This document shows positions 29,228-63,561 of a stretch of DNA of 64,000 bases, in pieces. The DNA is taken from contig NC_135250.1 of assembly GCF_964204865.1 (NCBI RefSeq), positions 24,366,001-24,430,000 of the forward strand, read 5' to 3'. The DNA is from Styela clava (lineage: Eukaryota). A model generated the notes under the pieces. The model worked only from the letters and a program-made list of their open reading frames with translations, was not told the origin of the DNA and did not search any database. How positions within the stretch are numbered: the first letter of the stretch is position 1; each line of letters starts with the position of its first letter. Both the position numbers and the translations under genes were made by a program.

Positions 29228-29924
29228 TATGTATACATATCACATTGTCCTCACTCCTAAGTTTTTTGAAACAAAATTTTATGGAATGACTACTAATTAT
29301 TAATATTATTTGATGATTGTTTTATAGTCATTACAAATTTTGATTATTTTCATACGTTCCAATTCAATTTTTTTTGCTTCGGGCTACTATTGTCGGACTC
29401 GGCCACGGTTCGCGCTAAAAAAATAAACCGATTATGTTTTGGCGTTCGATTTTCATTGACAAGCACGTTTTTGAATTCTTTATAGCATGTATTGCTACTG
29501 TTATTAAATTAAACTGCTTTTTATATCCTGTGGGCATAAGCGTGAGGCACTGATTGACCAGTTCGTGTGAGGCTTTCTTTCTTCAATCGAGTAAAGTTTC
29601 ATCCCTTGTTTTGTAGTTTGTAAATGAAATTTCTATCTGTGCCTTTTCACAATAAAGATTATATGCACTGGTCTTCAGAAAACTGGCACAAAGTCTATTG
29701 CGAAAGCGTTGAGAATACTTGGTTATAATGTGCATGACTTGTACGAGCAATTTTTCCGCGAAAAAGAATTATGGGACAAGGTAACTGAAACATTTGGAAA
29801 AGGAAAATAACATTTAGTTTTATGTAAAGCCTGGCAGGATAAAGTATCTCTCATGAAAATATACATTAGTATGACGGAAGCTGTTGTTAATGGCTTCGAT
29901 ACAAAAGTGGACTCAGAATAGGTT

Positions 29925-30153
29925 ACGATTTGCATATTTATTCCGGGGGAGAGGAAAGCCGTTAGGACGGCTCAACCATATGACGAACCTCGGCCAGCGG
30001 TTACGTAAACCCACCTACGGCGGCGAGGAGTCCAGCAATCCTCTCGCACATGACCATCCCACATGGGATTAGAACCTGCGAACCCACGCATGGTAATCAG
30101 AGGTGCGGTGGCGAGCGTATTCCTAACGCTTAGCACGATGAACCACACCGCCG
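29925..30153 (-). mobile_element. tRNA-derived SINE in S4 intron 1
   Basis: On the minus strand: GGCGGTGTGGTTCATCGTG (A-box-like), GGTTCTAATCC (B-box-like), GC-rich body and an A-rich 3' end. Confidence 0.7.
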
Positions 30154-31663
30154 TGTCGGTTCACTGTCGGTTGTACTCGAAATTTTTTATCCCATCACTG
30201 CCTTCATGTTTGTTGAACAGGTTGTTAACACGACAGTTACAATAGATGATTATCAACAAAGTCTAGAAGATGTTGATGCAGTAATGGACTGGCCTGCAGT
30301 TGCAGTGTGGGAACAAATCATGGAAGCATTTCCTGATGCTAAAGTAACAATGAGGATTTTGGTTATTCTATGTATATCCTCATTATCTTTTTGCCTACAT
30401 GGGTATATATTTCTTACAAAGGCCGAAGTTTATATGGCCTGCCTATAATGTTTCCAAAGGGCACATCACACATCCACAATATAAAGATTCGGTTCATGCA
30501 TCTGAAACTAATACCTGATCAAGATTCCAATACTCGTCACGAACTGGTAACCGGACAAGATGTCGCTAAGTTATTTAACTGTCTTATCAATCAGACCAAG
30601 ATCAGACTTCTTCAGACATACATAGTTCAATATATTTGTGTTAGTGTGCAGCAAGAATCTGGAATCACTTAGGATAGGTATCTGAACTCTTGCTACAGCA
30701 TCCTTGCAATATATGCATACGGATCGGCCGGCACAAAAGCATAGAAGAAGGATAAGTAGTATAGTCTCGCAAAAACCAAATCATTAATACATTTTTGGGT
30801 AACGCTTTTTGCATTACCGAAGATCAAAATTACAGAACTATATTTTTAACAGGTGATTTTGACGATTCGATCCAGTGAAGACAAATGGTTTGAAAGCGTC
30901 AAATACCAGTATGAAGTTGGAAACCAATACGCACACAATACGGAAACCAGTGGCGTATTTAGGATGTGGCAGTCATGGCTTGTGCTCGTGCCAAAACAGC
31001 GAAAAGTATTAATCATAAAAATCAACAAAATCATTTCAAATTGGGAATAACTGAAACTCGTAGTTCTAATCAAATAAATACGTACAGGTATCTCAATTCA
31101 ATAATTGTCATTATAAATTGCAAACAACTATCAAAGGAGCGCATTTTTAGACTTTGCCATGGGCGCCATTTTACGCCATTTTTACGCCATTTTTACACCA
31201 CTGATTACAATAGAAAGAGAGAAATGGAAAAGGACACAAGGGTATAGTGGATAAAACGTTAGACTTAACGATGATGAAATCTCAGGTTCAAATTTTGGGT
31301 TCACACGTTCACCCCCTCACCTAGGGTGTAATAACTTGGGTAGGCAGTGGCAAACCAGAACCTATATTGTAGCATTGAAGACGAATAAAAAGTTGAGAGG
31401 AACGAGATGAAAAGAGAAAAGAAAGAACACGTTGATGAAGGATGTAGAATGTACAGGGGCCTCCTTTGAATCAATTCATATATATTTTCATTTAAATTTT
31501 TTTTTTTCAGAAAAATTGATTTACTCTTGAAAATATATCATTTGATTGTGGGTTCAGTGTATCGCAGATTCCTAAAACGAAGCTTTCTATTTCTTAATGC
31601 TTGTCTTGGAATTCAACAATTTTCAGGAACACCAATTGAAGCTTTTATGAGGTCAGTTGCTGC

Positions 31664-33755
31664 TAGGCTTGCACGTAATTGACAAAAATCAATTCCGTAA
31701 TTACGGCAAAATCAATTACGTAATGACCCCGTAATTGCGATATTTTTCCACGCATTTAAACCTATCGTAACAACCAATTGAATCCACTTTTTTTCCGAAT
31801 GGGACATTGAAGTTGGGTTTTCCTATTCTTGGCAGTACTACACGCCGGCGGCAGATGTTAAAGACAACTATCAAGGAGTGAATTCAAATTAATTTTATTC
31901 TGATTTTTATCTTTTGTGTTAGCTTTGGTTTTTCTTTATCACCTTCGCAAATTAACCGTCCCATTTTTATGCGATCAATTTTATTTTATCATTACCGACA
32001 CTGGTATACGGATATTTATGGAAACGATAGTTTTTTAAAACCACCTGAGTACTGAATAAAAATTACGGGTTTCTAATTTATTAACCAACAACGATTTCCT
32101 CGCGACGAAGACTTGTTTTTGCAGCGTTTTCTGCATTATCCGACATTACTGCCTTGTTAGCATTTTTATAATAATAATTATTGATGTCGACTTATTGACG
32201 ATATTCCTATTACCATGCTTCATTTTACATTCAATCATTTCGCGGACTGAATGTTTATAACATTATTTGCGATAAATTTAGATCAAATATTATTTATTTG
32301 CGTATAATTTAAATACCGAACTTATATGACATGCCTTCTCCGAAAATACAAAGTTATATCGCAAAACAATGCATTTTGCGACATTTATTTTACACTCACA
32401 ACATTTATTTGCTAACTCAAGTCGGCGATCCTATCGGCCAAGATTGACAAAAGTTTGGTCGAGTGCCGGTGGTATTCAAGTCGACGATAAATCAAAATAA
32501 GTTGCCGCATTTGGTAAGACAGTTAATCATATATGGCCGAAATATTGAGAGGAATTGTGAAAAACATCATGAGCAAGGCCAAGTCCGGACTGATATATAA
32601 CGATAAAACCGTTAACAGAACATCAAGATTTTGTAATAGAAAATGGATCTCGCACAGAATAAACACACAGGCTCATATTTATTTATATATGATAGCAGTT
32701 AAATTTTCAACGGTCCGCGAGGAATCCGTCGTTTTGGTTCATTACGCAATCTCTCTTTTGTCGTCATATTGCTATTTGATAAGCGCGACATTAATTATCA
32801 TGGCGAGGTATTGGCGCGAGTGATCAATCGCTCTTTTCGCTTATTTGGTTCCAATTCGTCGCGAAAGCTCTTCGTTAAATTTCACAAGATAGTCGTGTTG
32901 AAAGGTTATGGATATTTTCCTGTTTATACCCCAAGTCTGAAATGAAACAGCCAAAAATAATATGATATTCCATGTTCATATATCCAGTGTTGATATTAAC
33001 AATAAAGAATGGTTAAGCATTGCTAATCCACACTTGGTGGGGAATTCCCACTATTCAAACGCGTGACTATAAAATAGAATAAAATAGAAACGGAACATAT
33101 ATACCATAAGTAACGGAAAACTGGAACAAGTAAATAATAAATAAAAGTAAAATGGATACAAATGTTTGATAGACCATGTTTGATAGATTGATCTCCTGCG
33201 TTCATTAGTCATTTCACCCGAAGAAGTTGAAACCGGGCGTGTTAGCGTCCATCTGTCTTAACACAATTCTTCCCCCTATCTACGGTTATATGTACATTGG
33301 CCATGGCCATGCTAGATAAGATGCGAGAGAAGTTGAAACCAGGTGTGTTGGCGTCAATCGGTCTCAACGCAATTCTATCCCTTATCTACGGTTAAGTTGC
33401 GGGAGAAGTTAAAACCAAGTGTGTTGGCGTCAAACGGCCCTACTCAGTTCTTGCCCATTAACTACGTTAATAATTTACATTGGCCACGCCAGATAAATTG
33501 ATAATAGGTTAGTAAATGGCAACGCGTCATGCCTTCCTTCACCTACGTAACAAGAGAGAGAAAAACGGCTGCGAATACCGGAACTCTAACTTCTTCTACT
33601 TGTTGAGCTTTCATTTTCGCAATCGACGAAATTGACTGCTTTGAAGAAAGCTCGTTTCAATGCAATAATTACGACTTTACGTAATTCGTAACTTCCCTTC
33701 CGTAACTCCAAATAATTACGTAATTCCGTAAATCCGTAAATTACGTGCAAGCCTA
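31664..33755. mobile_element. Non-autonomous hAT-type DNA transposon, 2092 bp
   Basis: TIR TAGGCTTGCACGTAATT...AATTACGTGCAAGCCTA, perfect 8-bp TSD GTTGCTGC, subterminal CGTAA repeats. The paralogous empty site is in S6 (~59345-59375). Confidence 0.9.
33218..33475 (+). repeat. Three degenerate ~70-nt internal repeats within the hAT element
   Basis: GAAGTTGAAACC(A/G)GGTGTGTTGGCGTC...CTACGGTTA occurs three times. There is only one unit in the 39.7-41.0 kb copy. Confidence 0.7.
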
Positions 33756-35788
33756 GTTGCTGCTATTAGATTTCTAACCAGTTCAAGTCGATCTCATCTC
33801 AAATTAAGGTGAACAATTTCAATTTTAATATGGGCTTGATTTCGTTATAACAATAAAAATTAGGTACATTGTGTCCAGAAAATATATGACCAGAACCTTT
33901 TTGTGCTACCTAACGGTTAAAAAACAGAAATTTTTATTTCCCAAAATGAAAGAATATTAATTTCATTATTTTCAAATTTTTCTCCTATGAAGTCCTAAGG
34001 AATTTGATATTGGGAAGTACTTGAGAATCCATCGTTGCATCTCTCAGGCCCTTACTTTTAGCGCATCACTTTTCAGGCAATCAAGTTCTTTCCTTATAAA
34101 GTCTAAATATTGCATCTAACATTACAAAATGTATCAAAGCATCTAACCCAAAAAGTATACGACGCGGTAACAGACGGTCACGGACAGGCCCGGTGTTTAC
34201 AGACCACTGCAATAAACCAATCAATTTCTCACCCGATTGGTTCTTACTTTATCACGTAAAGTTCGACGCACAACGTAATTCTACATATGAATATTTCACT
34301 TGTACGCTTTTGAAATCAATATCATTCTTTTTCATCAGGTCCCGATATCGGCAACACAACTTATACGTCGAGTCAACATGTCCGAGTAGCAAACTTTTGA
34401 TTTATAACGTTAAGGATGGCTGGGGACCATTGTGCAAATTTCTAAATAAGAAAATCCCGGACAAACCTTTCCCAAGGGAAAACATTAAAGCCGAAATGAC
34501 CCACAAACTGTTGGCCAATAAATGGGAACACGATTGTGGATTGATGGAAGATTTACACAGACGATTCACAATACTATTGGGAACACTGGTTTTCCTAATA
34601 ATCGCGATTATATCTTATGTTGTTATGAAAGATTTTGAAAATTAAAAGTCCCTTTTCAAATATATTTATATATACATCGCCAATTCTGAGTATTTATGAA
34701 CAGTGCTTCATAGATTCAAATGATTCAAGCCTCAAAGTGACTCTCCGACCACCTGAACGTGATTTAACTTTTTCAATTCCGCCGGGACCTGAAATTAAGG
34801 ACCGATCCTGAAAAGTCGTGCCGAAAAAGCATTGGGATGGGACAAGATGGTATTCTACCAGAATAGCTAGCTTATATATTTATCCGCCAGCATGTCTGGA
34901 ACTGCGGTCAGAAATTTTCAAACGCCTGGTAATATGGATTTCTGTTGTTCAATCCCACTGGGACAATCTCAAGAATAAATACCGTTAGCACACATATGTT
35001 CCAAAAGGGAAAAATATGATGAGAAACAACATTAATCCATGTCAGATACCTTATACACTCAATCTGATTTGTTTTCAATAATTATTATAAATCGGCATTG
35101 GGAGGGTATTAAGCCTCGGAAAAAATTTTGGGAAAGTTTTTGAAGAGTAAAATTTGATTTACCTCCCCGATTAATGTCGTATTAAAAATTGTCGAAAACT
35201 CTCTAACTTTTTTTAGCTATAAATTTTGATAAAGAGTAATGATACCGATGTATATGTTGTCGAATACATGAGTAATCCCAGTTTGATATGATGAAATAAC
35301 GTTGATTAACGTGAGATGGAAAGTTTCGTGTCATAATGTGAAGGGGACTCATATTTTTTTCTTTCGCTCGAGCCTCTGACTCATTTAACTCATTAGTATT
35401 CAGTTGTATTATGGCAAATAAATGGGATGTCCCGGGAATTTACAAACTTGTTGACCGTCTCAGACTTTCAAGCCGCGAAAATTAACTTTGTTTTCATAAT
35501 TTCAACATGGAATTGGGTACATTTGGGGATTAATTGCTACAGTATTAAACTCGTTACAATAATGTGATGCAATGTTTAAAAAATAAATAAAATTAAAAAC
35601 ATAAATACAAAACATTTTATACAAAATCATATTAACATCCAAAAATATTCATTGGAATTGTAACAGGAAAATTTGACAATTAGTGGTATTTGTTTAATTA
35701 ATGTAAATTTATTTAAATGCAAATCTAAATCAATAATTGTTTCTTTAATGTGATTCTACATATATATTATACAATTTTCCTCCCCCTT

Positions 35789-36579
35789 TTATGCAGATAT
35801 TGCTATTAATCTAGGGCACTCAACATTATTGTTAGATTTGAGAACATATTTATGTTTGCATGGATCGGAATCGTCAGGCATCGCTTCTTACTCGTCTGGA
35901 AGAATGGCAGTTTGCATGCTGAAAAACATAAACATAGACAGTTATTGTTGCGTGCGCTACAGCGGTACTAAGGTTACTAATTTTACATTCGGTAAAAAGA
36001 TTATTTATGACAATCATCATCATAACTAACTGCGTGTAACCTATCCAATAATTAAATTTGATAATCACTTACTTGTTACAGCAAGATGTGGCAACAGTTT
36101 CAATTATTCGATAAACTATGAACAGTTGAGATGGGAGATGTTCATTGGAATTTTTTCATTTTGGTGAAACCGGGTGGACATGATGGTGGAAGATTATTAC
36201 GATCAATATCTTCAAATAAGGTTTCAACTTCATCAGGTCCAGGCAATCCATATGCTGTCAGTAGCGAACAGTTTAGATGAATCTGTATAAATGTAATAAA
36301 CAAATGTGTTTAAAAGGTTATTTTTGTTAAACAGCAATCCATGAAAGAGTACAAATACATACGTGATAAGCTGCAATGTTGCATCGACATTCAACGCAAG
36401 GTCCGACGTTCCACACCTCACCAACTTCATAGAAATTCGTAAATATACCTAAAAAAGATGTTGGAGTGTATTTACACCTTTTATCTCCTGATATATCGTA
36501 GGTACAACTGGCGCTGATGCATCCAACAATCGCAAATGAGATCAAAGTTATGAAAACAGCTTTTAACAGAGTATTTCAT
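35789..36579 (-). pseudogene. MSMB/PSP94-like pseudogene M1
   Basis: Exons 36579-36363, 36282-36073, 35918-35789. Frameshift in the signal peptide, +1 frameshift in exon 2, TAA replacing a Cys codon in exon 3. TATA segment is deleted upstream. Confidence 0.85.
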
Positions 36580-38740: not shown

Positions 38741-41172
38741 ATGAAATACTCCTCGATAAAAGCTATTTTCGGATCTTTGATCTCATTTGCAATTGTTGGA
38801 TGCATCAACGCCAGTTGTACCTACGATATATCAGGAGATACCTGGTGTAGACACACATCAACTACTCCTACAAGTAGATTTACAAATTTTTATGAAGTTG
38901 GTGAAGTGTGGAACGATGGACCATGTGTTGAATGTCGATGCCATCCCGTAACTTACAGAGTATGTATTAGTAAATATTGACTAGTATTGGACACAAAGTC
39001 CATATGCACTTCCTATAAATTGTTTTGTTTTTATTATGTTGATTTTGTTGTAAAAAAATCTCCTTTCTCAGCAACTACAGGTACAATTGCTTTGAAATTT
39101 TCGGAGGTTAAAGATTGTTGTAATCATTAGAAGGCTAAAACTTTTATATTCTGTGGGCTCTATGGGATTCCTTTTTCAATCTGAAGTTTTAGGTGATAAC
39201 GTCATCAAATTTAAAAAGTGCGCATTAGGCCGCATTTCAGCGAATTAGGGAGAACTACCGTTAAAGATTTGATACCGATACTACTCCGTCTTGGCTTTCG
39301 TGCCCTTATCTTCTGGCATTGTTCTCTTGTTTTCTTGAGAAAATATAACGTTTTTAAAATGTCATTCATTAACTTTGATACAGACTCATTTAAACTGTTC
39401 GCTACTCGTGGAAGATGGAAAGACTGGACCGGATGAAGTTGAAACCTACTTTATAAATCTTGGCAACGTCTATCCAACATCATGTCCGTTCGCCTTCACC
39501 CAAGTTACTGACTCCAACAAACATCTCGCATCCCAGCTGTTTGTTGTTTATCGATTTGTTGACACTGTTGCCACATCTTGCTGTGACAGGTGGGTAAATC
39601 TAACATTTAATGGTAGAGTTACGTGCGCTTTAATTTAATGCAATTAATTCTGATAGACTATGAAACTTATTGTATTAGTGAAGTATGTGTACAGTCTAGG
39701 CTTGCACGTAATTTACGGATTTACGGAATTACGGAATTATTTCGAGTTACGTAAGCGAAGTAACGAATTACGTAAAGTCGTAATTATTGGTCGAGTACTT
39801 TCGCGATTGAAACGAGCTCTCTTCAGAGCAGTCAATTCCGTTAATTGTAAAAAATTAAGTTTAATAAGTAGAAGTTAGAGTTCCGGTATTAGGAGCCGTT
39901 TTTCTCTCTCTTGTTACGCAGGTGGGGAAGGCATAACGCGTTGCCATTTACTAACCTATCATCACTTTATCTAGCATGGCCAAAGTACATATTAAACTTA
40001 GATAAGGGATAGAATTGTGTTGAGACCGATGGACGCCAACACACCTGGTTTCAACTTCTTCGGGTGAAATGACTAACGAATGTAAGAGATCAACTTATCA
40101 AACATGGTCTATTTGTAAATGCCGTGATAATTAATGTCGCGCTTATCAAACAACAATATGACGACGGAAGAGAAATTGCGTAATAAACCAACGCAACTTA
40201 CTTAGGTAGTTTTTTCGGCATCGGTAAATCGATTGAGACGGCAGAGAAAACGAAACGACGGGATTTCCCGTGTTTATTCTGCGCGAGAACCATTTTCTAT
40301 TACAAAATCTTGATGTTCTGTTACCGGTTTTATCGTTATATATCTGTCCAGACTTGGCCTTGCTCAATATGTTTTTCACAATACCTCGCTATATTTTGGC
40401 CAAATATGATTAACTGTCTTTACCGAAAGTGGCAACTTATTTTGATTTATCGTCGACTCGAATACCGCCGGCACTCGACCAAACTTGTGTCAATCTTGGC
40501 CGATAGGATTGTCGACTTGAGTTAGAAAAATAAATTAATATTTTCGTGAGTGCAAAATAAATGTCACAAAATGCATTGTTTTGCGATATAACTTTGTATT
40601 TTCGGAGAAGGCATGTCATATAATTACGGTATTAATATCCGTATACCAGTGTTGGTAATGATAAAATTGATCGCATGAAATTGGGTGATAAAGAAAAATC
40701 AAAGCTAACACAAAAGATAAAAATCAGAATAAAATTAATTTGAATTCACTCCTTGATATTTGTCTTTAACATCTGTCGCCGGCGTGTAGTACTGCCAGGA
40801 ATATGGAAACGAAACTTCGATGTCCCATTCGGAATAGAAGTGGATTCAATTGGTTGTTATGATAGGTTTAAATGTGTGAAAAAAATATTGCAATTACGGG
40901 GTCATTACGTAATCGATTTGGCCGTAATTACGGAATTGATTTTTGTCAATTACGTGCAAGCCTAGTGTACACATCAAGTCTATAGAGGTTTTACAACACT
41001 TTTTGTCGATAATTCATTTAATATCTGGTTTATGTTTTGCAGAATGCAACTTGCCGTCCTACCAGACGACTGCGAAGCAATACCTGACGATTCCGATCAA
41101 TGTATATTTAAATTTGTTTTGAAATCCAACAATAATATTGAGTGCTCTGGAAATATGGCAATGTCTGGATAA
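38741..41172 (+). CDS. Secreted beta-microseminoprotein (MSMB/PSP94)-like protein M2 with insertion, intact, 184 aa
   Basis: Exons 38741-38959, 39384-39589, 41043-41172 (555 nt). Signal peptide MKYSSIKAIFGSLISFAIVGCINA, then SC..C..GEVWNDGPCVECRC..[insert, 2 Cys]..CC..C..C..C. The PSP94 assignment rests on my recognition of the Cys/Trp pattern. Confidence 0.8.
39697..40964. mobile_element. Second, shorter, inverted copy of the same hAT-type element in M2 intron 2
   Basis: Same 17-bp TIRs. Internal sequence is the reverse complement of 31664-33755 with deletions. TSD is imperfect (GTGTACA on both sides). Confidence 0.88.
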
Positions 41173-41724
41173 AAGAGAAAAGTCAAATTTTAAGAAACAA
41201 TCAATTTACATTAAATAAATAGTGTTAATTATCGCACATTTTTTAGTTGAAATTTGTGTGTAACAATATTCCTTGGTTCGTACGTTGATATATAGTACAT
41301 GTGCTCAATAAAATTAACAACAATAACATTATGAAACAATTAAATACCAGTGAGTTTTATATTGTAATAAAAAGAATAGACTTTACATTCATTTTATCTG
41401 TTCAACGTAGGATTATTTGTGTTAACCAGTGTTTGTTTGAAGGTATTAAACGCCATTTCGAGTCACAGGTTATCAGCGTGTCGAGTCAAGTCAGGGTCTA
41501 GGAAAATTTCGATTCATAAGTTAAGTCTTTTTGCTCACACGATTCAAGTAGAGTCGCAAAAATCTCAACTGACAGGTCGAGTTAAAGGCATTCCAGACTG
41601 ATCGAATCACTTCGAGTGTTTAAATAACGTGACTCGAGTCATTCATTCGAATCACTCCAGTACTATTAATAACCATTAGAAATATGAGTTAGGGCTGATA
41701 GTTTGTTATATATTTATAACATTT

Positions 41725-41946
41725 AATCTTCAAAATATCTCATAACATCATAAGAAATAATTGCGATTATCAGAAAAATCAGTGTTCCCAACAGGGTTTT
41801 AAATCGTCTATGAAAATCTTCGATCAATCCACAATCGTGTTCCAATTTGTTGGAAAACAATTTGTAAGTCTTTTTAATGTTTTTCCTTGGGAAAGGTATG
41901 TCCGGGATTTCTCGGTTTAGAAATTTGCACAGCGGTTACGAGCCAT
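41725..41946 (-). pseudogene. Sulfotransferase exon-5 fragment (S4 subfamily)
   Basis: Reverse complement matches the 3' part of S4 exon 5 (PLCKFL...HDCGL...TLIFLIIAII) with indels. Confidence 0.75.
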
Positions 41947-44368: not shown

Positions 44369-44511
44369 AATGCGATTCGTTTTGTCGTGTTATTTTCGTT
44401 CACTATTTTTGTGACTTCAAAGCGGGACGCCTCCAAAGACAACAACCCCTTAGCTGTGATTTTGTAACTTTACATTTTTCGATTTCACAATACAAAGGCC
44501 TACATTTAAAG

Positions 44512-47368: not shown

Positions 47369-47830
47369 AATAAAATGCTTTGAATTTACATATAAATATT
47401 CAATTTGTTCAATTTACAAACAACGTATGTATGTTGGGTAGGAGCCCCAGGAAGCTCAGTCGCGAGTCACGGGTTATCCGAGTCTTGAGTCAAGGCTGCG
47501 TCTATGCAAAGTTTCAAGTTCTCGTCGAAAGTCGTTATAACAGATTTTATAAACAACAGGAAAAGGAATAAATATGAGTCGCATTTGCAATATGGCATGA
47601 AACTTCCCATCTCACGTTAACCAACGTTATTTCGTCATATCGAACTAGGATTTGATCATGAATTCAACAACATTCACATCGGTATCTTCACGCTATATCA
47701 CAAGTTATAGCTACAAAAAGCTAGTAAGTTTTCGATAATTTTTAATACGATGTTAATCAGAATTTTCTCCAAATTTTAAATCACGTCTCGGGTGGTCAGT
47801 CGAGTCCTTTGAGGCTTGAATCATTTAAAC

Positions 47831-49416: not shown

Positions 49417-49494
49417 ATTTAAACCTCTGAAGCGCTGTTTATAAATACTCAGAATTGGCAATACATATATATACATATATTTAAGGACGGACTT

Positions 49495-51728: not shown

Positions 51729-52527
51729 TCATTCAGATATTGCTATATCTACAGGACACTCAATAGTATTGTCAAATCTGAGAACATATTTTTGTTTGCA
51801 TGGATCGGTCTCATCAGGAATCGCTTCACACTCGTCTGGGAGAATGGCAGTTTGCCTGCTGAAAAACATAAACAAATTATTTAGAGAGTTATGATTGCGT
51901 GCGGTACCAAGGTTACTAATTTTACATTCCGTAAAAAGATTATTTATCACAATCATCATCATAACTAACTGCATTTAGGCGCGTGTAACCTATCCAATCA
52001 AATTTTATAACTACTTACTTGTCACAGCAAGATGTGGCAACATTTTTAATTGTTCTATAAACTACGAACATTATAGATGGGAGATGTTTATTAGATTCTT
52101 TCATTTCGGTGAAGTTGGGTGGACATGATGATGGAAAATGAAAACGATCAGTATCTTCAATTACGGTTTCAACTTTAGCAGGTCCAGGCAATCCATTTTC
52201 TGACACAAGCGAACAGTTTAGAATCTGTATAAATGTAATAAACAAATGTGTCCAAAAAGTTATTTTTGTTAAGCAACAATCCATGACAAAGTCCCCATAC
52301 ATACTTGATAAGATGCGATGTTACATTGACATTCAATGCATGGTCCATTGTTCCACACTTCACCAATTTCATAAAATTTCATAATTATACTCATGGGAGT
52401 AATTGAAAAGTGTTGACACTTTCTAATTCCGGTTATACGGTTTCCACAACTTGCGTTGATGCAGCCAACAATTGCAAATGCAGTCAAAGTTATGAAAACA
52501 TTTTTTTGTCGCGGAGCATTCCATCAT
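51729..52527 (-). pseudogene. MSMB-like M5: single +1 frameshift in an A7 run of the signal peptide, otherwise intact
   Basis: Three exons are open with all Cys. The ATG at 52524/52527 is out of frame by 1 nt through a homopolymer (52501-52507), so this is either a true lesion or an assembly error. Confidence 0.65.
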
Positions 52528-54929
52528 GTTTGTAAGAAACGAATTCGATATCTCAAGCAAATAAGGTTTCAATTTTATACCTCGACGTAGAAAATCAGCG
52601 GAGTAACTAATTTCTACAGAAATAATTTTAATTGTGCTGTATCTGACATAATCACAGTCTTATATACTTTTCTGAGCAGATAAAAAGCTAATTTTTTCTC
52701 TATTTTCAATTTGTTTACAAATCACGAGAGTGCAAGTAGTCACGTTTGTGATTTAAAAATAGATATTTTCTACGACGAGTTGACGAGTTTTTTTAATAAT
52801 GGAGAAAGTTTTAATTTATTTATAGAAATATTTTGTAAGTATCTGTTTTCAAAATTTTATAATTTCATTTTTTTCGATTTTATGTTTTCGTCCTCAAATA
52901 TATTCTATGAAATAAATTTAGATATTTAATTTAGATATGACTACTTCCAATTGCATGAAATCTCGTAAACAACTTTAATTTGCGTCAATTATTTCACTTT
53001 GGAGAAATTAAAAATTATCAATCACGCCGAGCACTTTTACATCGCAAATGACATGGAGAATAGGAAATTGCAATGGTGTATATCCCGTAGGAAATAGAAC
53101 TTTCGGATACGTATTTTTGTGCTGCGTTGAAGCTGAAAGTTGCAACAATTTTACAAAACTATGCATTCATTTCATGTGTGACTTCATAGATGCTCCATGA
53201 ATTGTGTCAGGATTTGTTTTCCACAACCAGTATCTTATATGAACAATATCTTGCATTGGGATAGCTTACAAATCACCAAGTATCAGATTGATATATATTG
53301 CCATAAATAATCAGGAATTGTAGTATAAAAAAAATTCAATCGTCTATTTTCAGTAGTTTTTCCTTTCAATTTTTTGGAAATAAATATAAAACTATTTTAC
53401 TGTTCGTCCGCAACTCTTCGCTCAGAAATCAGTCTCCTTCATGTTAAAGAATTGAAACGTATTTAGAAAATAAATTTTTGCAAAGAAAAAGTTTTTCAAA
53501 TTCGTAAGGCGTCGTCCTACTATAATTGCTGTTACCTTTATATATCTTTACTCTCTGAATCCCAGGCAGTAATATTTTCAGAAAGCAGGATAGTTTAAAT
53601 TACTCTGTGAGAAATGTTAGTTGCAGAAGAGTTCAACAAAGATTTATAATTAGCGCTTCATCACATATTTTCAGATAAAAACCAAAAGAACCAAAATAAA
53701 ATTGAAATAAAAAAACACACTCCATTTTACCAAAACATTCTCGTCAATGAAAATCGAAAGCAAAGTCGGTTCATTTCTTTGTCGCGAACCTCGGCCGAAA
53801 CCGACAACAAGCGGCCCGAGGCCAAAAACGTTTCATTGGAACCTGTGAAAATAATCAAAATTTGTGATAACTATAAAACGATCATGAAATATTATTACTC
53901 GTAATCTTTCTATAACATTTGTTTCTCAAAAATTAGGAATGAAAACAATGTAATTATATGTAATCACCCAGTTCAGACTCAACCATTATTCTGAACGTAA
54001 AAGAACATGGTTTGAAGTTTTGGATATGCAGGAATCTAGTTCTCGCAAAAAATTATTTATGATTATAACACCAAATGTAAAAAATGAAAACAATTCAAAA
54101 TTTTGCATGAAATTTTTCAGCTTCAACGCTCGCCAATAAATCTAATTGCGTAACTTACGTGAAACTAATGGAATGTAACTGGAAATAGTCCCAACAAAAC
54201 TAAGGAGAATTTCTAATTTGTGGAAAACAAAACACAAATAAACTACTAAATTTAGAAGTTATCGAAATAGCTGCAAATCTTCGGTGACATTCTTCCAGAT
54301 CTGAGTTGTTTCATAAAACTATCTAAAAGATTGATTACGTATTTTAGATTTATGTTTGCGCTGTATGCATCAGTGAATAAGTTGTCTTTAAAAAAATGTA
54401 TTTGCAAACATAGAAAAAAATAAGAGTGTTCACTTTTGCTATAGTAAACGAAAATAGAACGAATCGCATTCATTTTTTCCGGTCTCGAAAAGTATGAAAC
54501 GCTGCGAATATGTTAAATACAGCATAACTAAACTGATTCGATTCCAACTTCCAAGGTTTGTTTCATCGAGTCTTTTCGTTCAAACTTTTAGCAAAGCATA
54601 CTAGATACTAGTGTTTTTTTCGCCTACGTTTGTACCCTCTAACTGTGAACACGCATTCCTTATATATATCCTTCCGGGCTAATTCAAATATTGTGCTCGG
54701 CAAAAACCCATTAGAATAACTCCTGCTATTGAAGCTGAATCCGTAACTTATTCAGGCCGAAAGACACTTTTATTATTGTGTCACAAACCTTTAATCAAAA
54801 ATTACATTTTATTAAGAATAAAAAATCATCTAAAATTTCACTAAATTACACCTCACAACAATAAAAATTGACTACAAGCTGATTATCAAAATCGGGAAGT
54901 TGCAACTGGTATAATGCATCAATGACTGA

Positions 54930-55016
54930 ACCCACCCCAACTCTGCCGACTATATCATAAAATAATATATACACTAAACACGATACAAATGCAACAATAA
55001 CAAAGCATATTCTTAC
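54930..55016 (-). pseudogene. Sulfotransferase C-terminal TM fragment (S1/S2-like)
   Basis: RICFVIVAFVSCLVYI matches the S2 tail KICFVIVAIISCLVYY. The downstream 3' region resembles 26400-26520. Confidence 0.65.
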
Positions 55017-55209
55017 CGTATGACTGCCTATTCTACAGAGTTCCATACGCTACTGCAAAAGTCATTTTTGTATGAAGTTGCTGATAATAACCGTAGGTTA
55101 TTATTGATTTTACATTCGGAAAAAATTATTTATCTTAATGATCATATCACCATCATCATAACTAACGGCATTCAAGCGAGTGTAACTTTACCATGAATGT
55201 TTTTAATTA

Positions 55210-56010
55210 CCCCTCTGTTACAGCACGATACGACAAGAGTATCAACAAATCGATAATCCACTACAAACAAATCAATTAAATTACTCAGTAAAAAGGAAAA
55301 TATACAAACAAATGAAAAAAAAAATGAATAAATTTTTTTTGCCACACCAAATTAATATTTTTATGAGGATTGCCAAATTGGATACCGAATTAGTCAACAA
55401 GAGTAATGTATTGTGGATAGAAAAGTATTCCTCAAAAGATATCGCCAAGCTGATTATAATTGGAGTCCCCTAATGCCAAATTGCCCAATCAGAATTGCCA
55501 AGTTAGATGTATGAAGAGGTGGGCTAAACCTGCTTCACTCATCCAATAGAAGCCACAACAAGCCAAATAACGTCCAAATTATTTCAAATACTATTAATCA
55601 ATAACAGTACCGGAATCATAATTAAAATTAATTAGGGCGGTATTTTACAGAGGTAGGTAAATTGCTCAAGGGAATATATATGGTGTTAAAGGTTTAAGTA
55701 AGGTTTCTAAGGTCATGGATTATAGGCAAGTAAATTTAATTGAGGTTGTTGATCACTGCGGTCAGTTAAAAGATTTTCAGCGTTCAGTATATTTTTTTTA
55801 TTTCGGTGAAGCCGACTGGACACGATGATGGAAGATTTTAAATATCAATATCTATAAATTCGTTTCAACTTCATCAGGGTTGTCATTCCTTTTTTTACAA
55901 GTAATTAACAGTTCAGATGAGTCTGTATAATAAATGATTTATTAAATGAATGCGCTAAAAACTCGATATTTTCTCAAAGTACCAATACATACGGAATAAG
56001 GTATGATATG
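55210..56010 (-). pseudogene. MSMB-like fragment M6 (M3 paralog)
   Basis: 55800-56010 is nearly identical to 44005-44215 (exon 1 end, intron 1, exon 2). Exon 2 is interrupted, with the CC remnant at ~55215-55260. Confidence 0.72.
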
Positions 56011-57342: not shown

Positions 57343-58128
57343 ATGAAAAATTTCGCGATAAAGGCTGTTTTTATAACGTTGATCTCGTTTCCAATTGTTG
57401 GATGCATCAACGCCGCTTGCATTTACCACGGTACAGCAGAAGGTAGAATATGTAAACACTTCCCCAATATTACTCCAGTGTTTCGAGTGGCGAATTTTCA
57501 TGAAGTTGGTGAAGTGTGGGACGATGGAATATGCGTTGAATGTCGATGCCATCCCGTAACTTACAGAGTATGTATTGGTACTTTGTCATGGATTGCTGTT
57601 TAATCAAAAATAACCTTTTAAGCACGTTTGTATATTATATTTATACAGACTCTGAACTGTTCGCTAATGACACGTCATGGAATTCCTGGACCTGATAAAG
57701 TTCAATCTTTTTATGAAGATATTGATATTCTTCCATCATCATGTCCAACCGGCTTCATCGAAATGAAAGAATCTAGTAAACATCTCCCATCTCTAATGTT
57801 CCTAGTTTTTCGAACAATCGAAACTGTTGAAGCAAGATGTTGTAGCACGTAAGTGATTATAAAATCTAATTAAATAGGTTACACGCGCCTAAATGCAGTT
57901 AGTTATGATGATGATTGTGTTACATAATCTTTTTACAGAATGTATAATTAGTACCCTCAGTAGCGCACGCAACCATAACTCGCTATGTTTATGTTTTTCA
58001 GATACCCACTTGCCCGTTTCCCAAGCGAGTGTGAAGCGATACCTCACGATTCCGAACCATGCAAAGACAAATATGTTCTCAAATCTGACAATACTGTTCA
58101 GTGCCCTGAAGTTAAAATTTTGACGTAA
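57343..58128 (+). CDS. MSMB-like secreted protein M7, intact, 183 aa (recent duplicate of M4)
   Basis: Exons 57343-57567, 57649-57848, 58002-58128. In frame, all Cys present. Confidence 0.82.
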
Positions 58129-58214
58129 AATAAAATGCTTTGAATTTACATATATTTAATTCATTCAATTTACAAACAATGTATGTATGTTGGGTAGGAA
58201 GGACGGACTTTCAA

Positions 58215-59518
58215 TTTATTTTTCAAATCTTTCATAGCAACATCATATATAATCGCTATTATTAGGAAAACCAATGTTCCCAAAAAGGATTTTGAATCGT
58301 CTGTGTAAATCTTCCATCAAGCCACAATCGTGTTCCCATTTGTTGGCGAACAGTTTGTGTGTCATTTGGGCTTTAACCTTTTTTCCTGGGAAAAGTTTGT
58401 CCGGAATTTCTTGATTTATGAATTTATGATTTATGAACGGTTCCCGGCCATCTTTAACGTTATAAATCAAAAGTTTGCTGCTTGGGCATATTGACCTAAC
58501 GTATAAATTGTGCTGCCGATATCTGGACCTGAGGATAAGGATGGTACTTGTTAAATGCGTGAAAGAGAAATAATTATGTGTAACTTTGCGTACTTCGATG
58601 TAATGGGTCGAAACAAATTGATTGAGAAAAGATTATGCGTAACTTTGCGTAATTCCACGTAATTCGTCGTAAATTACAAATGCAGTTTGAGGCACCTTGT
58701 GGCGTCTGAAGCTGCCGCAAAATCATGGCGGGATTTACAAACCATGGCCGCTATGGTCAAATCATTGCGGCTTACTATTTAGCTGCCACAAACAAATGGC
58801 GTGAGGCGGGGTACCACGACATCAAATTGAAAACCATGGCGGGTAAATTGTGCTGCCACAAACCAAGGCATGTAGGCTGTAATGGCAGGAACGCCCCTGA
58901 TCGTGACACACTTTGGGTAAGTTACAACATTTTTCTTACAGATACAGTTTCGATTGATTTGGGGTTAGGTTTCAGATTTAGGTAGATATAATTTCGCATG
59001 GTGAACTAAAATCTGGTACATGACTTTGTGAATATACTGGTAATAGCGCCATAAAACCATATTAAGAGACGCCGCGGTTCGTTCGTAGCAGGAGCCGCTA
59101 TGAGGTGGTAATCACTGCGTCTCGTAACTTACGTGACAAAGTCGAAACAAATCGATCTAGAAAAGATTAGTTTAATGGTGTGGTCGGTAATCACCGAACC
59201 TGCCCATAAAGAGAGAAACGTTTTGTATAGTTAGACGCAATATTTAGACATTATAAGAAATGAAATTAATAGTCTGATTTTTACGTTAAGGCTTGAGAGC
59301 CGAGTTTGAAGTGTTTAACTTAATTTGAGCTGAGATCGTTTTAAACTGGTTAGAAATCTATTAGTATCAACTGAACTCATAAAAGCTTCAATTGGTGTGT
59401 TCCTGAAAATTGTTGAATTCCAAGACAAGCATTAAGAAATAGAAAGCCTCGTTTTAGGAATCTGCGATACACCGAACCCAAAATCCAATGATACATTTTC
59501 ACGATGAAATCACTTTTC
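58215..59518 (-). pseudogene. Sulfotransferase pseudogene S6 (exons 4-5 only, S4 subfamily)
   Basis: Exon 4 at ~59518-59376 has its donor GT mutated to TT. Exon 5 from 58528 has indels. The 5' exons are missing and replaced by the truncated 3' end of M8. Confidence 0.8.
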
Positions 59519-59711
59519 CTGAAAAAAAAATTACAATATATATATATATATGAATGGATTCAAGAAGAGACCCTTGTACATTACACCCATTTCCTCAAAA
59601 ATTTAACGATGATGAAATCTCTATTCAAATTTTGGGTTCACACGTCACTACCTCAGCTAGATCTACTAGATTTTAAAAATACTTTTATTTCGCCACTGCC
59701 TACTGAAGTTA

Positions 59712-60721
59712 TTTCACAATCCTCTGGTAGAACGGCAAGTTGCATGCTGCAAAACATAAACAAAATATTAGAAAAATCATCGACAAAAAGTGTTGTAAAA
59801 CCTTCATAAACTTGTATTCCTAGTTGACTAAGCCGCTAAGCTTCATGGTCCACCAGAACTGACAACATTGAAGTGCACCTAACTCTACCTTCAAATTTTA
59901 TATTTACCCACCTCCTGTCACAGCAAGATGAGGCGACAGTGTCAACAAATCAATAAACTAAGAACATTCGAGATGCGAGATGTTTATTGGAATCAGTAAC
60001 TTGGGTGAAGGCGAACGGACATGATGTTGGATAGACGTTGCCAAGATTTATAAATTCGGTTTCAACCTCATCAGTGCCAGTTCTTTCATCTTCTACGAGT
60101 AGCGAACAGTTTAGATGAGTCTGTACAAAAGTTGAGAAATGGAATTTTAAAAACTTTATTATTTTTCAAGAAAAAACAAGAGAACAATGCTCAAACATAA
60201 GAACACGAAAGCCAAGACGAAGTAGTACCGTAAATATATGCTACTACGGTAGTACTGGTATCAAATCTTTTATAGTAGCGGTAGTCCTCCCTACTTCGCT
60301 GACCACCAGATCGCTGGCATGGTGCGCACTTTTTAATTTTAAAGACGTCATCACACAAAATTTAAGATTGAAAAGCAAATCCCATGAATCCCACACATTA
60401 TAAAAGTAATACATACCCTTGTAGCGACTACAACAACATAATAATATTAATAATGAAACGATCCATATAAATTTTTGTCCAATACTAGTCAATTATTACT
60501 GATTCATACTCTGTAAGTTACGGGACGGCATCGACAATCAACGCATCGTTCCACACTTCACCAACTTCATAAAAATTTGTAAATCTACTTGTAGGAGTAG
60601 TTGATGTGTGTCTACACCAGGTATCTCCTGATATATCGTAGGTACAACTGGCGTTGATGCACCCAACAATTGCAAATGAGATCAAAGTTATAAATACCAC
60701 TTTCATCGCAGAAAATTTCAT
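59712..60721 (-). pseudogene. MSMB-like pseudogene M8 (M2 paralog)
   Basis: 7-nt deletion after WND in exon 1, TGA in exon 2 (starts 60120), and exon 3 truncated after LPEDCE. Confidence 0.83.
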
Positions 60722-62755
60722 TTTGTTTGTAGGAAACGAATTTAATTATTCAGGTTTCGATTTTATAACACAGTTCAGAAGTTTGCAAACTATTAGAGTT
60801 AACCAATTTCTTTTGTTCTGTTTCTGTTGTTTTGTTTTGTTCAATTTTAGTTGTTCTGTATTTGAAATATTCGCCGCCTTTTATACTTTCCGGGACCGGA
60901 AAAAATGAATGCGATTCGTTCTGTCGTGTTATTTTAGTTCACTGTAACGAAAGTAAACACTCCTAATTTTTCATATAATTTCTGGAATAAGAGCTTTTTT
61001 GAAAAATGATAACTTACTCACTTGTTTTCGGTAAATTAGAAATAGTTTCCTATTTTATATTTGCGACTACTTTCATTTACATTCCATTTAGCTTGACGTA
61101 AGTTACGCAATTACATTTATTGGCGAGAGTTGGAACTGAAGAAATATTATAAAAAAAAACTTTTGTATTTTTTCGTCTCCAATAGTATAATCATAAACAA
61201 CTTTTAGCGATAACTTAGAAATTACTGTATATCTAAAACTTCAAACAAAGTGCCTTCATGTTCAGATTATTGTTAGAGTCTGAATTGAGTGAATATATAT
61301 TGTTCTGATTCCTAATTTTCTGCGAAACAAATGCTATAGAAAGTTAACTAACGATTAATATTATTTTATAGTTGCTACAAATTTTTATTATTTTCACAGG
61401 TTCCATAAAACTTTTTGGCCACGGACTGTTATTGTCGGGCTCGGCCGAGGTTGGCGTCAACGAAATAAACCGACTTTGCCTTCGATTTTCATTGACGAGA
61501 ATGTTTTTGTATGAAATGTGTTTTTTTGGTTCAATTTCCATTTTGATTTAAAAATTAAATATTAAACCAGAAAAAGTGTAAAATGGACACGATAACAACC
61601 CATCATAAACCAGATTATGTTTATTTTTTCAAGCGATTTCCAGCCATTATTTTTGATTCTATTTTATGTAATATGATTAAAATTGCCAAAAGAGTTTTGT
61701 AATAATATATGTTTTAAAATTGATTGAATTATTAAAAAAGTTTTGTATCAAAATGAAAAGTTATCTGAAAATATGTGATAAAGCGATCAGGTTTCTTTGT
61801 GGAACACTACTACAACCAACGTTTCTTACAGATTATTTTAAACTATTCTGTTTTCTAAACATATTTATGCCTGGAATACCGAGAATAAAGATATATAAAT
61901 GTAACAGTAATTATAGTAGGACGACTTAAGGATTTGAAAAAGTTACTCATTGCAAAAATTAAATTTTTAAAAGCGTTTCAATAACAAATACAGATATAGC
62001 CATGAACCACGTGGTATGATGAGCTGTGATTAACTGTGAGTTATTTGCGCTTCCGATATAAAACCAGAAGTTGAAAAATACTAATCAATAAAATGAAATT
62101 TATTGGTTATTCAATAAACATATATTTTCTTTACACGAGAGGTGAGTTTCAATAAAGCAAGGTTGTAAAAAGTGTTTTCGTTAAACAAAACCCAAAACTC
62201 GATACAAGAATTCATATGTAGAATAATCAATTTGCTTTTAAGTTTTTCGGGATATACAGCGTTGCAATTTCATGTTTTCGTCGTCATTAGCGATGTGACA
62301 GTACTTGGCGTGATTGATAGTTATTAATTTCTCCAAAGTGAAATAATTGACGCGAATGAATGTTGGAATTAGTCATAACGAAATTGAAAGGCTAAATATA
62401 TTTCATACAATTTATTTTTAGACCAAAACATAAAATCGACAAAGATAAAATATTAAATTTTAGTAAACATATTAGTAATACAGACAAAATATTTCGTCGA
62501 AAATATATATTTTTAAATCATAAACGTGACTACTTGCACTCTTGTGATTTGTAAACAAATTAAAAATGGAGAAAGTCACTTTATCAGGTGCTCAGAAAAA
62601 TATATAAGACTGTGATTATGTCAGATACAGCACAATAGAAATCATTTCTGTAGAAATTAGTTACTCCGCTGTTTTTCAAATTTTTACGTTGTGGTTTAAA
62701 ATCAAAACCTTATTTGCTTTAATTATAATTATTGAAGTTGTTTCTTATAAACAAG

Positions 62756-63561
62756 ATGAAATATTCCGCGATAAATGTTGTTTTTTGTGACGTTGATCTC
62801 ATTTGCAATTGTTGGATGCATCAGCGGCAGTTGTGTCTACAATATAACAGGGGATAGAAGGTGCAAGCACACGTTTAATACTTCTTCAAGTGTAACTACG
62901 AAATTTTATGAAGTTGGTGAAGTGTGGAACGATAAACCATGCGTTGAATGTCGATGCAACATCGCATCTTATCACGCATGTATTGGTACTCTGTCATGGA
63001 TTGCTGTTTAACAAAAACATCTTTTAAACACATTTGTTTATTACATTTATATATATATATAGATTCATCTCAACTGTTCACTACTGACACCACATGGCTT
63101 TCCTGAACCTGTTGAAGTTGAAACCTATTTTGAAGATATTGATCGTAATAATCCTCCACCATCATGTCCACTCGGCTTCACCGAAATGAAAGAATCTAAT
63201 AAACACCTCCCATCTCTACTGTTAATAGTTTATCGAATAATTGAATCAGTGGCCACATCTTGCTGTAACAAGTAAGTGATTGTAAAATTTGATTGTAAAG
63301 TTACACGCGTCTAAAGCAGTTATTATGACGATGATTGTGATAAATAATCTTTTTACTTAATGTAAAATTAGAAACCTTAGTACCGCACGCAAACAAAACT
63401 CTCTAAATATTCTGTTTATGTTTTTCAGCAGGCAAACAATTGCCATTCTCCCAGCCGAGTGTGAAGCAATTCCTCACGATTCCGATTCATGCAAATATAG
63501 ATATGTTCTCAAATCTAGCAATAATGTTGAGTGCCCTGGAAATATAATAGTATCTGGATGA
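62756..63561 (+). CDS. MSMB-like M9: near-intact, alternative start and GC donor
   Basis: The ancestral ATG (62756) is frameshifted by an extra T, but ATG 62775 is in frame (MLFFVTLISFAIVGCISG). Exon 1 ends at 62975 with a GCATGT donor. Exons 63063-63271 and 63429-63561 are open with all Cys. Confidence 0.6.

What the first reader, a model, noticed from the sequence alone, without database searches (positions are those of the whole stretch)
29652..63561. Co-duplicated sulfotransferase + MSMB-like cassette: candidate two-family secreted defence/signalling cluster
Seen: sulfotransferase 3' ends repeatedly face MSMB-like 3' ends tail-to-tail (S4/M1, M2/41.8-kb fragment, M4/S5, M7/S6). The spacer at ~34650-35400 recurs inverted at ~47570-49500. 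MSMB-like genes form head-to-head pairs (M1/M2, M3/M4, M6/M7, M8/M9). Inference: the two unrelated families were amplified together by inverted and tandem segmental duplication. They may be functionally linked, for example sulfation of a small molecule plus a secreted binding/effector protein in chemical defence, reproduction or immunity. I know of no described cluster like this in animals, but linkage alone does not prove joint function.
Basis: partly seen in the sequence, partly recalled or inferred. Interest (0 to 1): 0.8.

Follow-up and report, generated by a model that had tools for sequence, protein, structure and literature searches.

The report
Secreted-protein duplications dragging dead neighbours
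In a sea squirt, a small secreted protein family was copied many times and carried along pieces of whichever enzyme gene lay next to it, so the apparent two-gene cassette is a by-product; the mildly interesting part is the secreted protein itself, a microseminoprotein-like protein with an extra inserted module.

Summary
The layout is real; the functional cassette is not supported. The window is Styela clava (database names). Sulfotransfer_4 genes (S) and a three-exon secreted Cys-rich family (M) are interleaved as described. But the five M-facing S copies (four here, one 85 kb downstream) form one clade (100/100) with homologous spacers: one juxtaposition, copied. In this assembly 0 of 5 tail-to-tail junctions keep both genes intact; all four S partners in the window are broken. 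The intact S1/S2 lie outside the finding and have a C-terminal hydrophobic tail and no signal peptide, so they are not secreted. The only other M locus (contig 4) has no S exon in 90 kb; there M was co-duplicated tail-to-tail with a GT10 fucosyltransferase, whose extra copy also decayed. Best reading: birth-and-death amplification of M with hitch-hiking neighbours. M2 is spliced in one run. M keeps MSMB/PSP94 cysteine spacing and last-intron position but has a ~65-residue insert with two extra cysteines; no search reaches significance for PSP94, and all full-length relatives found are Styela. Caveats: some lesions are polymorphic, S4 evolved under purifying selection, synteny and tissue co-expression were not testable.

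The parts
19054..22290 (+). S1, intact five-exon Sulfotransfer_4 gene, 261 aa, C-terminal hydrophobic tail (outside the finding)
   Evidence: last-exon contigs in runs X1, X2, X12
23523..26401 (+). S2, intact five-exon Sulfotransfer_4 gene, 261 aa (outside the finding)
   Evidence: last-exon contigs in X1, X2, X12
27128..28462 (-). S3, broken S copy: exon 1 cut after 16 codons, exons 2-3 not found, stop in exon 4 (that stop is a sense codon in run X1 and in half the depth of X11)
29652..34645 (+). S4, copy of the S7 type; all five exons open but start codon is ATA and the exon-3 splice donor is gone; transcribed with read-through into intron 3 in run X1
30948..31203 (.). 256-bp element with short terminal inverted repeats, sitting where the S4 exon-3 donor should be
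31663..33756 (.). high-copy repeat in S4 intron 4; inverted partial copy in M2 intron 2 (39696-40965)
   Evidence: very high DNA-run depth
34646..35788 (.). S4/M1 spacer, homologous to the spacers at M4/S5 and at S7/M10 (G000:C1:24514.6-24515.6 kb)
35789..36579 (-). M1, broken in this assembly (frameshifts in exons 1 and 2, stop in exon 3); the exon-1 lesion is absent from a contig of DNA run X11
38741..41172 (+). M2, intact three-exon gene, 184 aa = RefSeq LOC144427186; signal-peptide-like N-terminus, 12 mature Cys; intron 1 spliced at 38959/39384 in run X2
41722..41946 (-). partial last exon of an S7-type gene, with a stop
43156..44369 (-). M3, 5'-truncated, one core Cys lost, non-GT intron-2 donor
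46580..47368 (+). M4, intact, 184 aa = RefSeq LOC120339535
47831..49416 (.). DNA-transposon-like element (terminal inverted repeats, 8-bp target duplication) splitting the M4/S5 spacer
49495..50511 (-). S5, chimeric and internally deleted: exons 1-2 of S1/S2/S3 type, then part of exon 3 fused to the second half of an S7-type exon 5; exon 4 absent
51729..52524 (-). M5, one-base frameshift in an A run near the start; RefSeq models a 140/141-aa product without signal peptide (LOC144425605)
54606..55017 (-). remnant of an S2-type 3' end
55185..56008 (-). M6, exon-2 remnants only (92% to M3)
57343..58128 (+). M7, intact, 183 aa = RefSeq LOC144422710; recent copy of M4 (93% over 1.56 kb)
58215..59517 (-). 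S6, exons 4 (part) and 5 only, frameshift in exon 5
59650..60721 (-). M8, broken (frameshift in exon 1, stop in exon 2, degraded exon 3)
62756..63561 (+). M9, frameshifted from the first ATG but open from a second ATG with a shorter signal peptide, GC donor; RefSeq LOC144422717 (179/180 aa)

Best explanation
Birth-and-death amplification of a secreted MSMB-like family with passive hitch-hiking of its neighbour. One M gene came to lie tail-to-tail with one member (S7 type) of a pre-existing Sulfotransfer_4 array (inferred: single event). The S-M block was copied in inverted orientation ~115 kb away (S4/M1 versus S7/M10; shown), then locally re-amplified by inverted and tandem duplications whose units include the M gene, its promoter and its 3' flank, and so the 3' end of S (shown by trees and spacer homology). 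Surplus S pieces decayed by deletion, chimerism and transposon insertion; some M copies stayed intact and diverged quickly. The two products work apart (inferred): S as a tail-anchored, probably cytosol-facing PAPS-dependent sulfotransferase for small molecules; M as a disulfide-bonded secreted binding protein, most likely acting like MSMB/SSP/PSP94-like proteins in mucosal or body-fluid defence or tissue remodelling, with the insert and the variable N-terminus setting partner specificity (inferred, weak).
For: Five of five M-facing S last exons form one clade, 100/100, against seven other S copies; nine of nine contig-1 M copies tested form one clade, 100/99, against four contig-4 copies. Spacers match each other (69-90% in pieces) and 0 of 9 control flanks (5 non-facing S genes, 4 contig-4 M genes) match them; 3 of 4 other contig-1 M flanks do, so they descend from the same unit. 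0 of 5 junctions with both genes intact: S4 broken/M1 broken, fragment/M2 intact, S5 broken/M4 intact, S6 broken/M7 intact, S7 intact/M10 frameshifted. An X1 contig enters at the S4 exon-3 acceptor and runs 149 bases past the exon end, beyond the in-frame stop. Second M locus on contig 4: four intact genes, no S exon at E<=0.01 in 90 kb, nearest S match 1.66 Mb away; it is co-duplicated tail-to-tail with a GT10 fucosyltransferase whose second copy lacks its start and membrane anchor and has three stops. S family is large and scattered: 113 last-exon matches of 121 candidates, 15 contigs, 49 clusters. Other tandem arrays lie between the two contig-1 blocks. MSMB clusters without such partners are in print: 14 paralogues in opossum (PMC3268785, passages), 11 tandem PSP94-like genes in a sea cucumber (PMC5638244, passages).
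Against: S4 versus S7 has dN/dS 0.22 at dS 0.38 with all exons open, so S4 was a working gene for most of its history. Lesions can be polymorphic: the M1 exon-1 frameshift is absent from an X11 contig and the S3 stop is a sense codon in X1, so other haplotypes may hold an intact pair; S4's start codon and M10's deletion were not checked in other samples. On contig 4 one GT10/M junction looks intact on both sides. Only 0.24% of the genome lies within 5 kb of an S last-exon match, and both M loci adjoin a transferase array, which is curious. S1, S2 and M2 pieces all occur in run X2.
Confidence: 0.85

Rival explanations
1. Formerly or still functional S-M cassette: S sulfates a small molecule, M binds or presents it outside the cell; linkage kept by co-regulation, and this assembly is a haplotype rich in null alleles.
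For: S4 under purifying selection until recently; lesions in M1 and S3 vary between samples; S1, S2 and M2 present in the same run X2.
Against: One origin of the junction; the three intact M genes that face S all face fragments that cannot encode an enzyme; S4 donor loss also seen in X1; genes are convergent, so they share no promoter; S not secreted; contig-4 M genes have no S.
Confidence: 0.05
2. Looser link: M genes persist beside transferase arrays (sulfotransferase on contig 1, fucosyltransferase on contig 4) because they share a regulatory domain for secretory cells making sulfated or fucosylated mucus or tunic; the extra enzyme copies are passengers but the neighbourhood matters.
For: 2 of 2 M loci adjoin a transferase array, tail-to-tail; M has an invariant N-C-S glycosylation site in the insert.
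Against: 'Transferase' is a category chosen after the fact; both families are large here (113 and 46 matches) and tandem arrays crowd this region; S lacks the N-terminal anchor that the GT10 has, so the two enzymes probably sit in different compartments.
Confidence: 0.06
3. Part of the repetition or of the lesions is an assembly artefact (collapsed or doubled haplotypes, homopolymer errors).
For: M5 and M9 lesions are single-base changes in homopolymer runs; no laid contig spans the whole stretch.
Against: Copies differ by 7-30%, far above read error; M4 and M7 differ at 24 of 93 bases in one coding patch; four DNA runs of two samples hold 0.65-0.74 of the words of 34-44 kb; RefSeq lists M2, M4, M5, M7, M9 as separate loci.
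Confidence: 0.04

Closest known systems
Beta-microseminoprotein / PSP94 family (MSMB, MSMP, USM, snake SSP; Pfam PF05825; PDB 3ix0, 6rwc)
   Same: Signal-peptide-like start; ten cysteines in the MSMB order with W-x4-C-x2-C-x-C, CC and three C-terminal Cys (spacing 12/10/14 in M2 versus 14/9/14 in human, using C64, C73, C87 from PMC3268785 and C50 recalled); last intron phase 2, two codons after CC, as computed for MSMB from marmoset exon sizes (PMC2746217 Table 4; 20-residue signal peptide and C49/C50 recalled); lineage-specific clusters with fast coding change.
   Different: About 65 extra residues between CxC and CC (71 versus 6) with two more invariant Cys and an invariant N-glycosylation motif; ~160-residue mature chain instead of ~94; a phase-0 intron before the insert and no intron inside the N-terminal domain; no PF05825 hit; full-length relatives found only in Styela clava.
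Tandem PSP94-like cluster of the sea cucumber Apostichopus japonicus (PMC5638244)
   Same: Invertebrate-deuterostome cluster of about ten duplicated PSP94-like genes recognised by cysteine pattern.
   Different: Passages read mention no enzyme partner, insert or inverted arrangement; they report up-regulation in gut regeneration, for which nothing is known here.
Sulfotransfer_4 family (PF17784; schistosome oxamniquine-activating sulfotransferase, PDB 4mua, 5tiz; 9kf1)
   Same: Pfam hits above cut-off for first and last exon; PDB sequence hits E 4e-10 to 4e-7.
   Different: Extra C-terminal hydrophobic tail; over 100 matches in this genome; substrate unknown.
Birth-and-death multigene evolution with segmental duplication of flanking genes (general concept, recalled)
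   Same: Recent duplicates, pseudogenes, chimeras, transposon-broken copies.
   Different: Nothing essential; the same M family shows it twice with two different passengers.

Membership tests
MSMB/PSP94 | PF05825 profile match above cut-off | tested here: not met
   0 of 8 full-length members, 0 of 9 exon-3 and 0 of 10 exon-1 pieces hit PF05825 at E<=10; genome search with PF05825 gave no M exon. The insert splits the domain, which lowers the power of this test.
MSMB/PSP94 | Ten conserved cysteines in the family order and spacing | tested here: met
   Mature M2 Cys 26, 36, 62, 65, 67, 139, 140, 152, 162, 176 plus insert Cys 78, 107; profile aligns to chicken MSMB3 in two pieces covering the last eight Cys, overall E 2.9, not significant.
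MSMB/PSP94 | Secretion signal | tested here: met
   N-terminal 15-residue hydropathy 2.35-2.69 in five of six M proteins examined; the sixth is the truncated M5 model. Hydropathy only, no signal-peptide predictor.
MSMB/PSP94 | Two-domain all-beta fold with five disulfides | tested here: inconclusive
   Models poor (pLDDT 32 and 36). Foldseek no hit at E<=0.001; the only VIA match of 63 with Z>=2 was human PSP94 3ix0, Z 2.6, rmsd 4.2, 37 residues, model 146-183. Atlas best hit PSP94 at 0.85, a lead only.
MSMB/PSP94 | Conserved intron between N- and C-terminal domains | tested here: met
   M2 intron 2 after 425 coding nt = phase 2 in codon 142, CC at 139-140; MSMB 3+106+106 nt = phase 2 in codon 72, CC position recalled.
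MSMB/PSP94 | Mature size ~94 residues, no insert between CxC and CC | tested here: not met
   About 160 residues, ~65-residue insert in all 8 aligned members.
MSMB/PSP94 | Binding of CAP/CRISP proteins or antifungal activity (recalled properties) | not testable with these tools
   Needs protein assays.
Sulfotransfer_4 (PF17784) | Pfam profile match | tested here: met
   S1 exon 1 E 2.3e-10, exon 5 E 1.2e-18, both above cut-off.
Sulfotransfer_4 (PF17784) | Sulfuryl transfer from PAPS | not testable with these tools
   N-terminal G-x-x-K-T-G-T motif present in S1, S2, S7 (its role is recalled); no assay.
Functional multi-family gene cluster | Both partners intact in the repeated unit | tested here: not met
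   0 of 5 junctions in this assembly.
Functional multi-family gene cluster | Partnership holds at every locus of the family | tested here: not met
   1 of 2 M loci has S; the other has GT10.
Functional multi-family gene cluster | Conserved adjacency in related species | not testable with these tools
   No relatives held for this genome.
Functional multi-family gene cluster | Co-expression in the same tissue or cells | tested here: inconclusive
   S1, S2 and spliced M2 all in run X2; runs are contigs without tissue record.

The most novel reading that the evidence does not exclude
M is a Styela-specific microseminoprotein that gained a second disulfide-closed, glycosylated recognition module and is diversifying as a secreted immune or self-recognition factor, and its two loci are kept beside sulfo- and fucosyltransferase genes because M is co-expressed with, carries or reads the sulfated/fucosylated products of those enzymes. 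Intact S-M pairs would then still segregate in the population. (The insert itself is shown; the coupling to the enzymes is the unlikely part.)
Probability: 0.07. Interest if true: 0.65.

Novelty: new variant of a known kind. Interest (0 to 1): 0.25.

Why it matters
As a cassette it matters little: it is a clean example of how duplication fakes functional linkage, with a built-in control (the same family dragging a different enzyme on another contig). The residual interest is the M family: 14 copies at two loci, unannotated in RefSeq, apparently an MSMB fold opened by a ~65-residue insert. MSMB function is a long-open question, and a natural insertion variant with fast-changing paralogues in a chordate without adaptive immunity gives a testable handle on what the fold binds. 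Seven literature searches (open-licence PMC and bioRxiv only) listed no paper on this family or on an S-MSMB cluster; MSMB-like genes in Ciona are mentioned in PMC3268785 (section 6), whose alignment supplement is a picture that could not be read, so whether the Ciona proteins carry the insert is unknown.

Tried and rejected
Structure prediction: single sequence pLDDT 32, 8-sequence alignment pLDDT 36; Foldseek rows all E>=2, not used as evidence except to note that PSP94 and MSMB3 had the two highest probabilities (0.23, 0.21). PDB sequence searches with exon-3 and exon-1 profiles found no MSMB. Atlas search of the insert alone: 0.76, uninformative. VWC: weak Pfam hit in 8 of 8 members, below cut-off, covering only the W-C-C-C stretch; rejected as the family. 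One non-Styela representative hit (P0007) is an 18-residue match in a repetitive protein; rejected. Sequencing-run search: no RNA holder listed on record; seven guessed-RNA runs had shares of 0.07-0.12. Runs X1 and X12 gave no cover of the M2 exon-1 bin while holding S1/S2 contigs; a part without cover proves nothing and is not counted. Contig depths were not used to rank genes. Positive selection on M not shown: M4-M7 dN/dS 1.0; the mature N-terminal patch has 24 of 93 bases different versus about 4% in flanks and introns, but dS is raised there too and bootstrap support for dN>dS is 0.87, so conversion fits as well. An older-assembly M4 allele shares 5 of 32 diagnostic residues with M7: ancestral states or conversion, undecided. 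Pfam on 97 of 97 open frames in window 1-19050 gave nothing above cut-off. Pfam on flanks used 72 of 188 open frames. M6 was left out of the M tree (remnant). Earlier findings of the scan: none. No complex prediction was run because no binding claim is made.
Full report
Source. The window is G000:C1:24366001-24430000 of a 377-Mb genome. A search with one M exon returned a RefSeq protein of Styela clava, LOC144427186, identical to the spliced M2 model I had built from the sequence.

The observation. Self-BLAST gave 124 matches of 80 bases or more, most between 19 and 64 kb. The spacer behind S4 recurs inverted between M4 and S5 at 82-87% identity, split by a 1.59-kb element with inverted ends and an 8-bp target duplication.

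What S is. S matches Pfam Sulfotransfer_4 above cut-off and, in the PDB, schistosome oxamniquine-activating sulfotransferases. Intact S1, S2 and S7 have no N-terminal hydrophobic stretch (0.6-0.7) and a strong C-terminal one (2.7-2.9): a tail anchor, not a secretion signal (inference). The family is large here: 113 last-exon matches of 121 candidates, on 15 contigs in 49 clusters. The two intact S genes of the window, S1 and S2, lie before the finding. Inside it all four M-facing copies are broken: S4 has ATA for ATG and a 256-bp element at the exon-3 donor; the 41.8-kb piece is part of one exon with a stop; S5 is a chimera (exons 1-2 group with S1/S2, 211-216 of 252 identical, against 192-199 for S4/S7) with exon 4 and half of exons 3 and 5 deleted; S6 is exons 4-5 with a frameshift.

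What M is. M2, M4 and M7 are intact; M9 is open from a second ATG; M5 has a one-base frameshift; M1, M3, M6 and M8 are broken. A contig of run X2 joins 38959 to 39384, exactly the predicted first intron of M2, so M2 is transcribed and spliced. The protein has a hydrophobic start and 12 mature cysteines. Ten follow the MSMB order; a profile aligns to chicken MSMB3 in two pieces with about 65 residues between them, but at E 2.9. The only structural match with Z>=2 among 63 was human PSP94 (Z 2.6), the Atlas lead was PSP94 at 0.85, and the last intron falls two codons after CC in phase 2, as computed for MSMB from published exon sizes (residue numbering partly recalled). Pfam PF05825 is not hit and the models are too poor to show the fold. 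I rate MSMB descent likely (about 0.8) but not statistically shown. The insert carries two invariant Cys and an invariant N-C-S motif. Full-length relatives: 5 of 23 and 7 of 473 candidates, all named Styela clava; 3 full-length hits among 1.84 billion representatives, the same proteins. This shows restriction only at that sensitivity and database coverage.

One event, not four. Three exon searches place M at two loci only: ten copies on contig 1 and four on contig 4 (with M6; one weak contig-13 match with a stop, E 0.37, set aside). The tenth contig-1 copy, M10, lies 85 kb past the window, tail-to-tail with an intact S7; the S4/M1 block is an inverted copy of S7/M10. All five M-facing S last exons form one clade (100/100) and all nine contig-1 M copies tested form one clade (100/99). 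The spacers are mutually homologous, and none of nine control flanks matches them. M10 has a 14-base deletion in exon 1. So in this assembly 0 of 5 junctions keep both genes.

A natural control. The contig-4 locus holds four intact M genes in two head-to-head pairs and no S exon in 90 kb. It sits at the edge of a GT10 fucosyltransferase array (9 of 46 genome matches). A ~16.7-kb tandem duplication, 93-94% identical, copied the M pair with the facing GT10 gene. The first GT10 looks whole; the copy begins after the membrane anchor and has three stops. The same family thus took a different passenger, and the passenger again decayed.

Against my reading. S4 versus S7 shows dN/dS 0.22 with open exons, so S4 worked for a long time after the duplication. 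Lesions vary between samples: the M1 exon-1 frameshift is absent in an X11 contig and the S3 stop is a sense codon in X1. However, an X1 contig enters S4 at the exon-3 acceptor and reads on into the inserted element past the stop, so the donor loss is not private to this assembly. S4's start codon and M10's deletion were not checked elsewhere. Only 0.24% of the genome is within 5 kb of an S match, and both M loci adjoin transferase arrays; I read this as arrays crowding in duplication-prone regions (other arrays lie between the contig-1 blocks), but it is not explained away. S1, S2 and M2 occur together in run X2, which has no tissue record. Synteny could not be tested: no relatives are held.

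Mechanism. Shown: single junction, inverted and tandem copying, one-sided decay, transposon damage, splicing of M2. Inferred: M is the gene whose copies were retained; S pieces are passengers; S acts on small molecules at a membrane inside the cell; M is a secreted disulfide-bonded binder in defence or remodelling, by analogy with MSMB relatives. M is under purifying selection at depth (dN/dS 0.31-0.36 between old paralogues) and relaxed or diversifying among contig-1 copies (0.69-1.0); positive selection is not shown.

Literature seen. Passages of PMC5638244 (sea cucumber cluster of 11 PSP94-like genes), passages and section 6 of PMC3268785 (family survey, Ciona homologues, 14 opossum paralogues; its alignment supplement gave labels only), passages of PMC2746217 (marmoset exon sizes, exons more divergent than introns), passages of PMC11812014 (PF17784 in a fluke). 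Seven searches listed nothing on this family or on an S-MSMB cluster; subscription papers are not covered.

Verdict. Real duplication, ordinary cause. Cassette function unlikely (about 0.05, or 0.11 with the looser co-regulation reading). The undescribed insert-bearing MSMB-like family is a new variant of a known kind. Interest 0.25.

Noticed in passing
L015:4485 to L016:3126 and L017:5200-9850 (G000:C4:3.484-3.510 Mb): GT10 fucosyltransferase co-duplicated tail-to-tail with the contig-4 M pair; first copy looks whole, second is 5'-truncated with three stops. Part of a nine-match GT10 array at C4:3.30-3.51 Mb.
   Followed up: yes
window 35789-63561: All five minus-strand M copies (M1, M3, M5, M6, M8) are broken or doubtful and all four plus-strand copies (M2, M4, M7, M9) can give a secreted product; copies are not independent, so this may be chance.
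   Followed up: no
window 46652-46747 versus 57415-57507: M4 and M7 differ at 24 of 93 bases in the mature N-terminus but about 4% in flanks and introns: a hypervariable patch or a conversion boundary.
   Followed up: partly
window 28022 and 36568: The S3 stop and the M1 exon-1 frameshift are absent in other runs, so null alleles segregate in this region.
   Followed up: partly
window 29652-35277: S4 appears to be a transcribed pseudogene in run X1: contigs start at the exon-3 and exon-5 acceptors and one reads into intron 3. Its 3' contigs extend to about 35.3 kb, toward the 3' end of M1.
   Followed up: partly
L003:2430-3902 (-), G000:C1:24.452-24.454 Mb: 491-codon open frame with a NACHT domain (E 1e-16) between the two S/M blocks: an NLR-like gene, hinting at an immune-gene-rich neighbourhood.
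   Followed up: no
L001-L005 (G000:C1:24.435-24.451 and 24.461-24.479 Mb): Two further tandem arrays: one of about 73-85% identity, and one with 1.3-2.2 kb units at 92-97% identity; content not identified.
   Followed up: no
L009-L012 (G000:C1:24.515-24.542 Mb): Four more five-exon Sulfotransfer_4 genes (S7-S10); S7 and S8 translate without stops, S9 and S10 were not fully checked; plus a broken S2-type last exon at 24.487 Mb.
   Followed up: partly
L019-L020 (G000:C4:3.524-3.539 Mb): Exons with glucose/sorbosone-dehydrogenase and folate-receptor-family hits, in duplicate: HHIP-like genes (label recalled) on the other side of the contig-4 M locus.
   Followed up: no
window 63429 and 51858: RefSeq isoform pairs of M9 and M5 differ by one residue at the exon-3 acceptor (tandem CAG-CAG), a small alternative-splicing feature.
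   Followed up: no
window 1-19050: No Pfam match above cut-off in 97 open frames of 52 codons or more; dispersed ~200-bp repeats at 3.4, 11.2, 12.1, 12.5 and 19.3 kb.
   Followed up: partly
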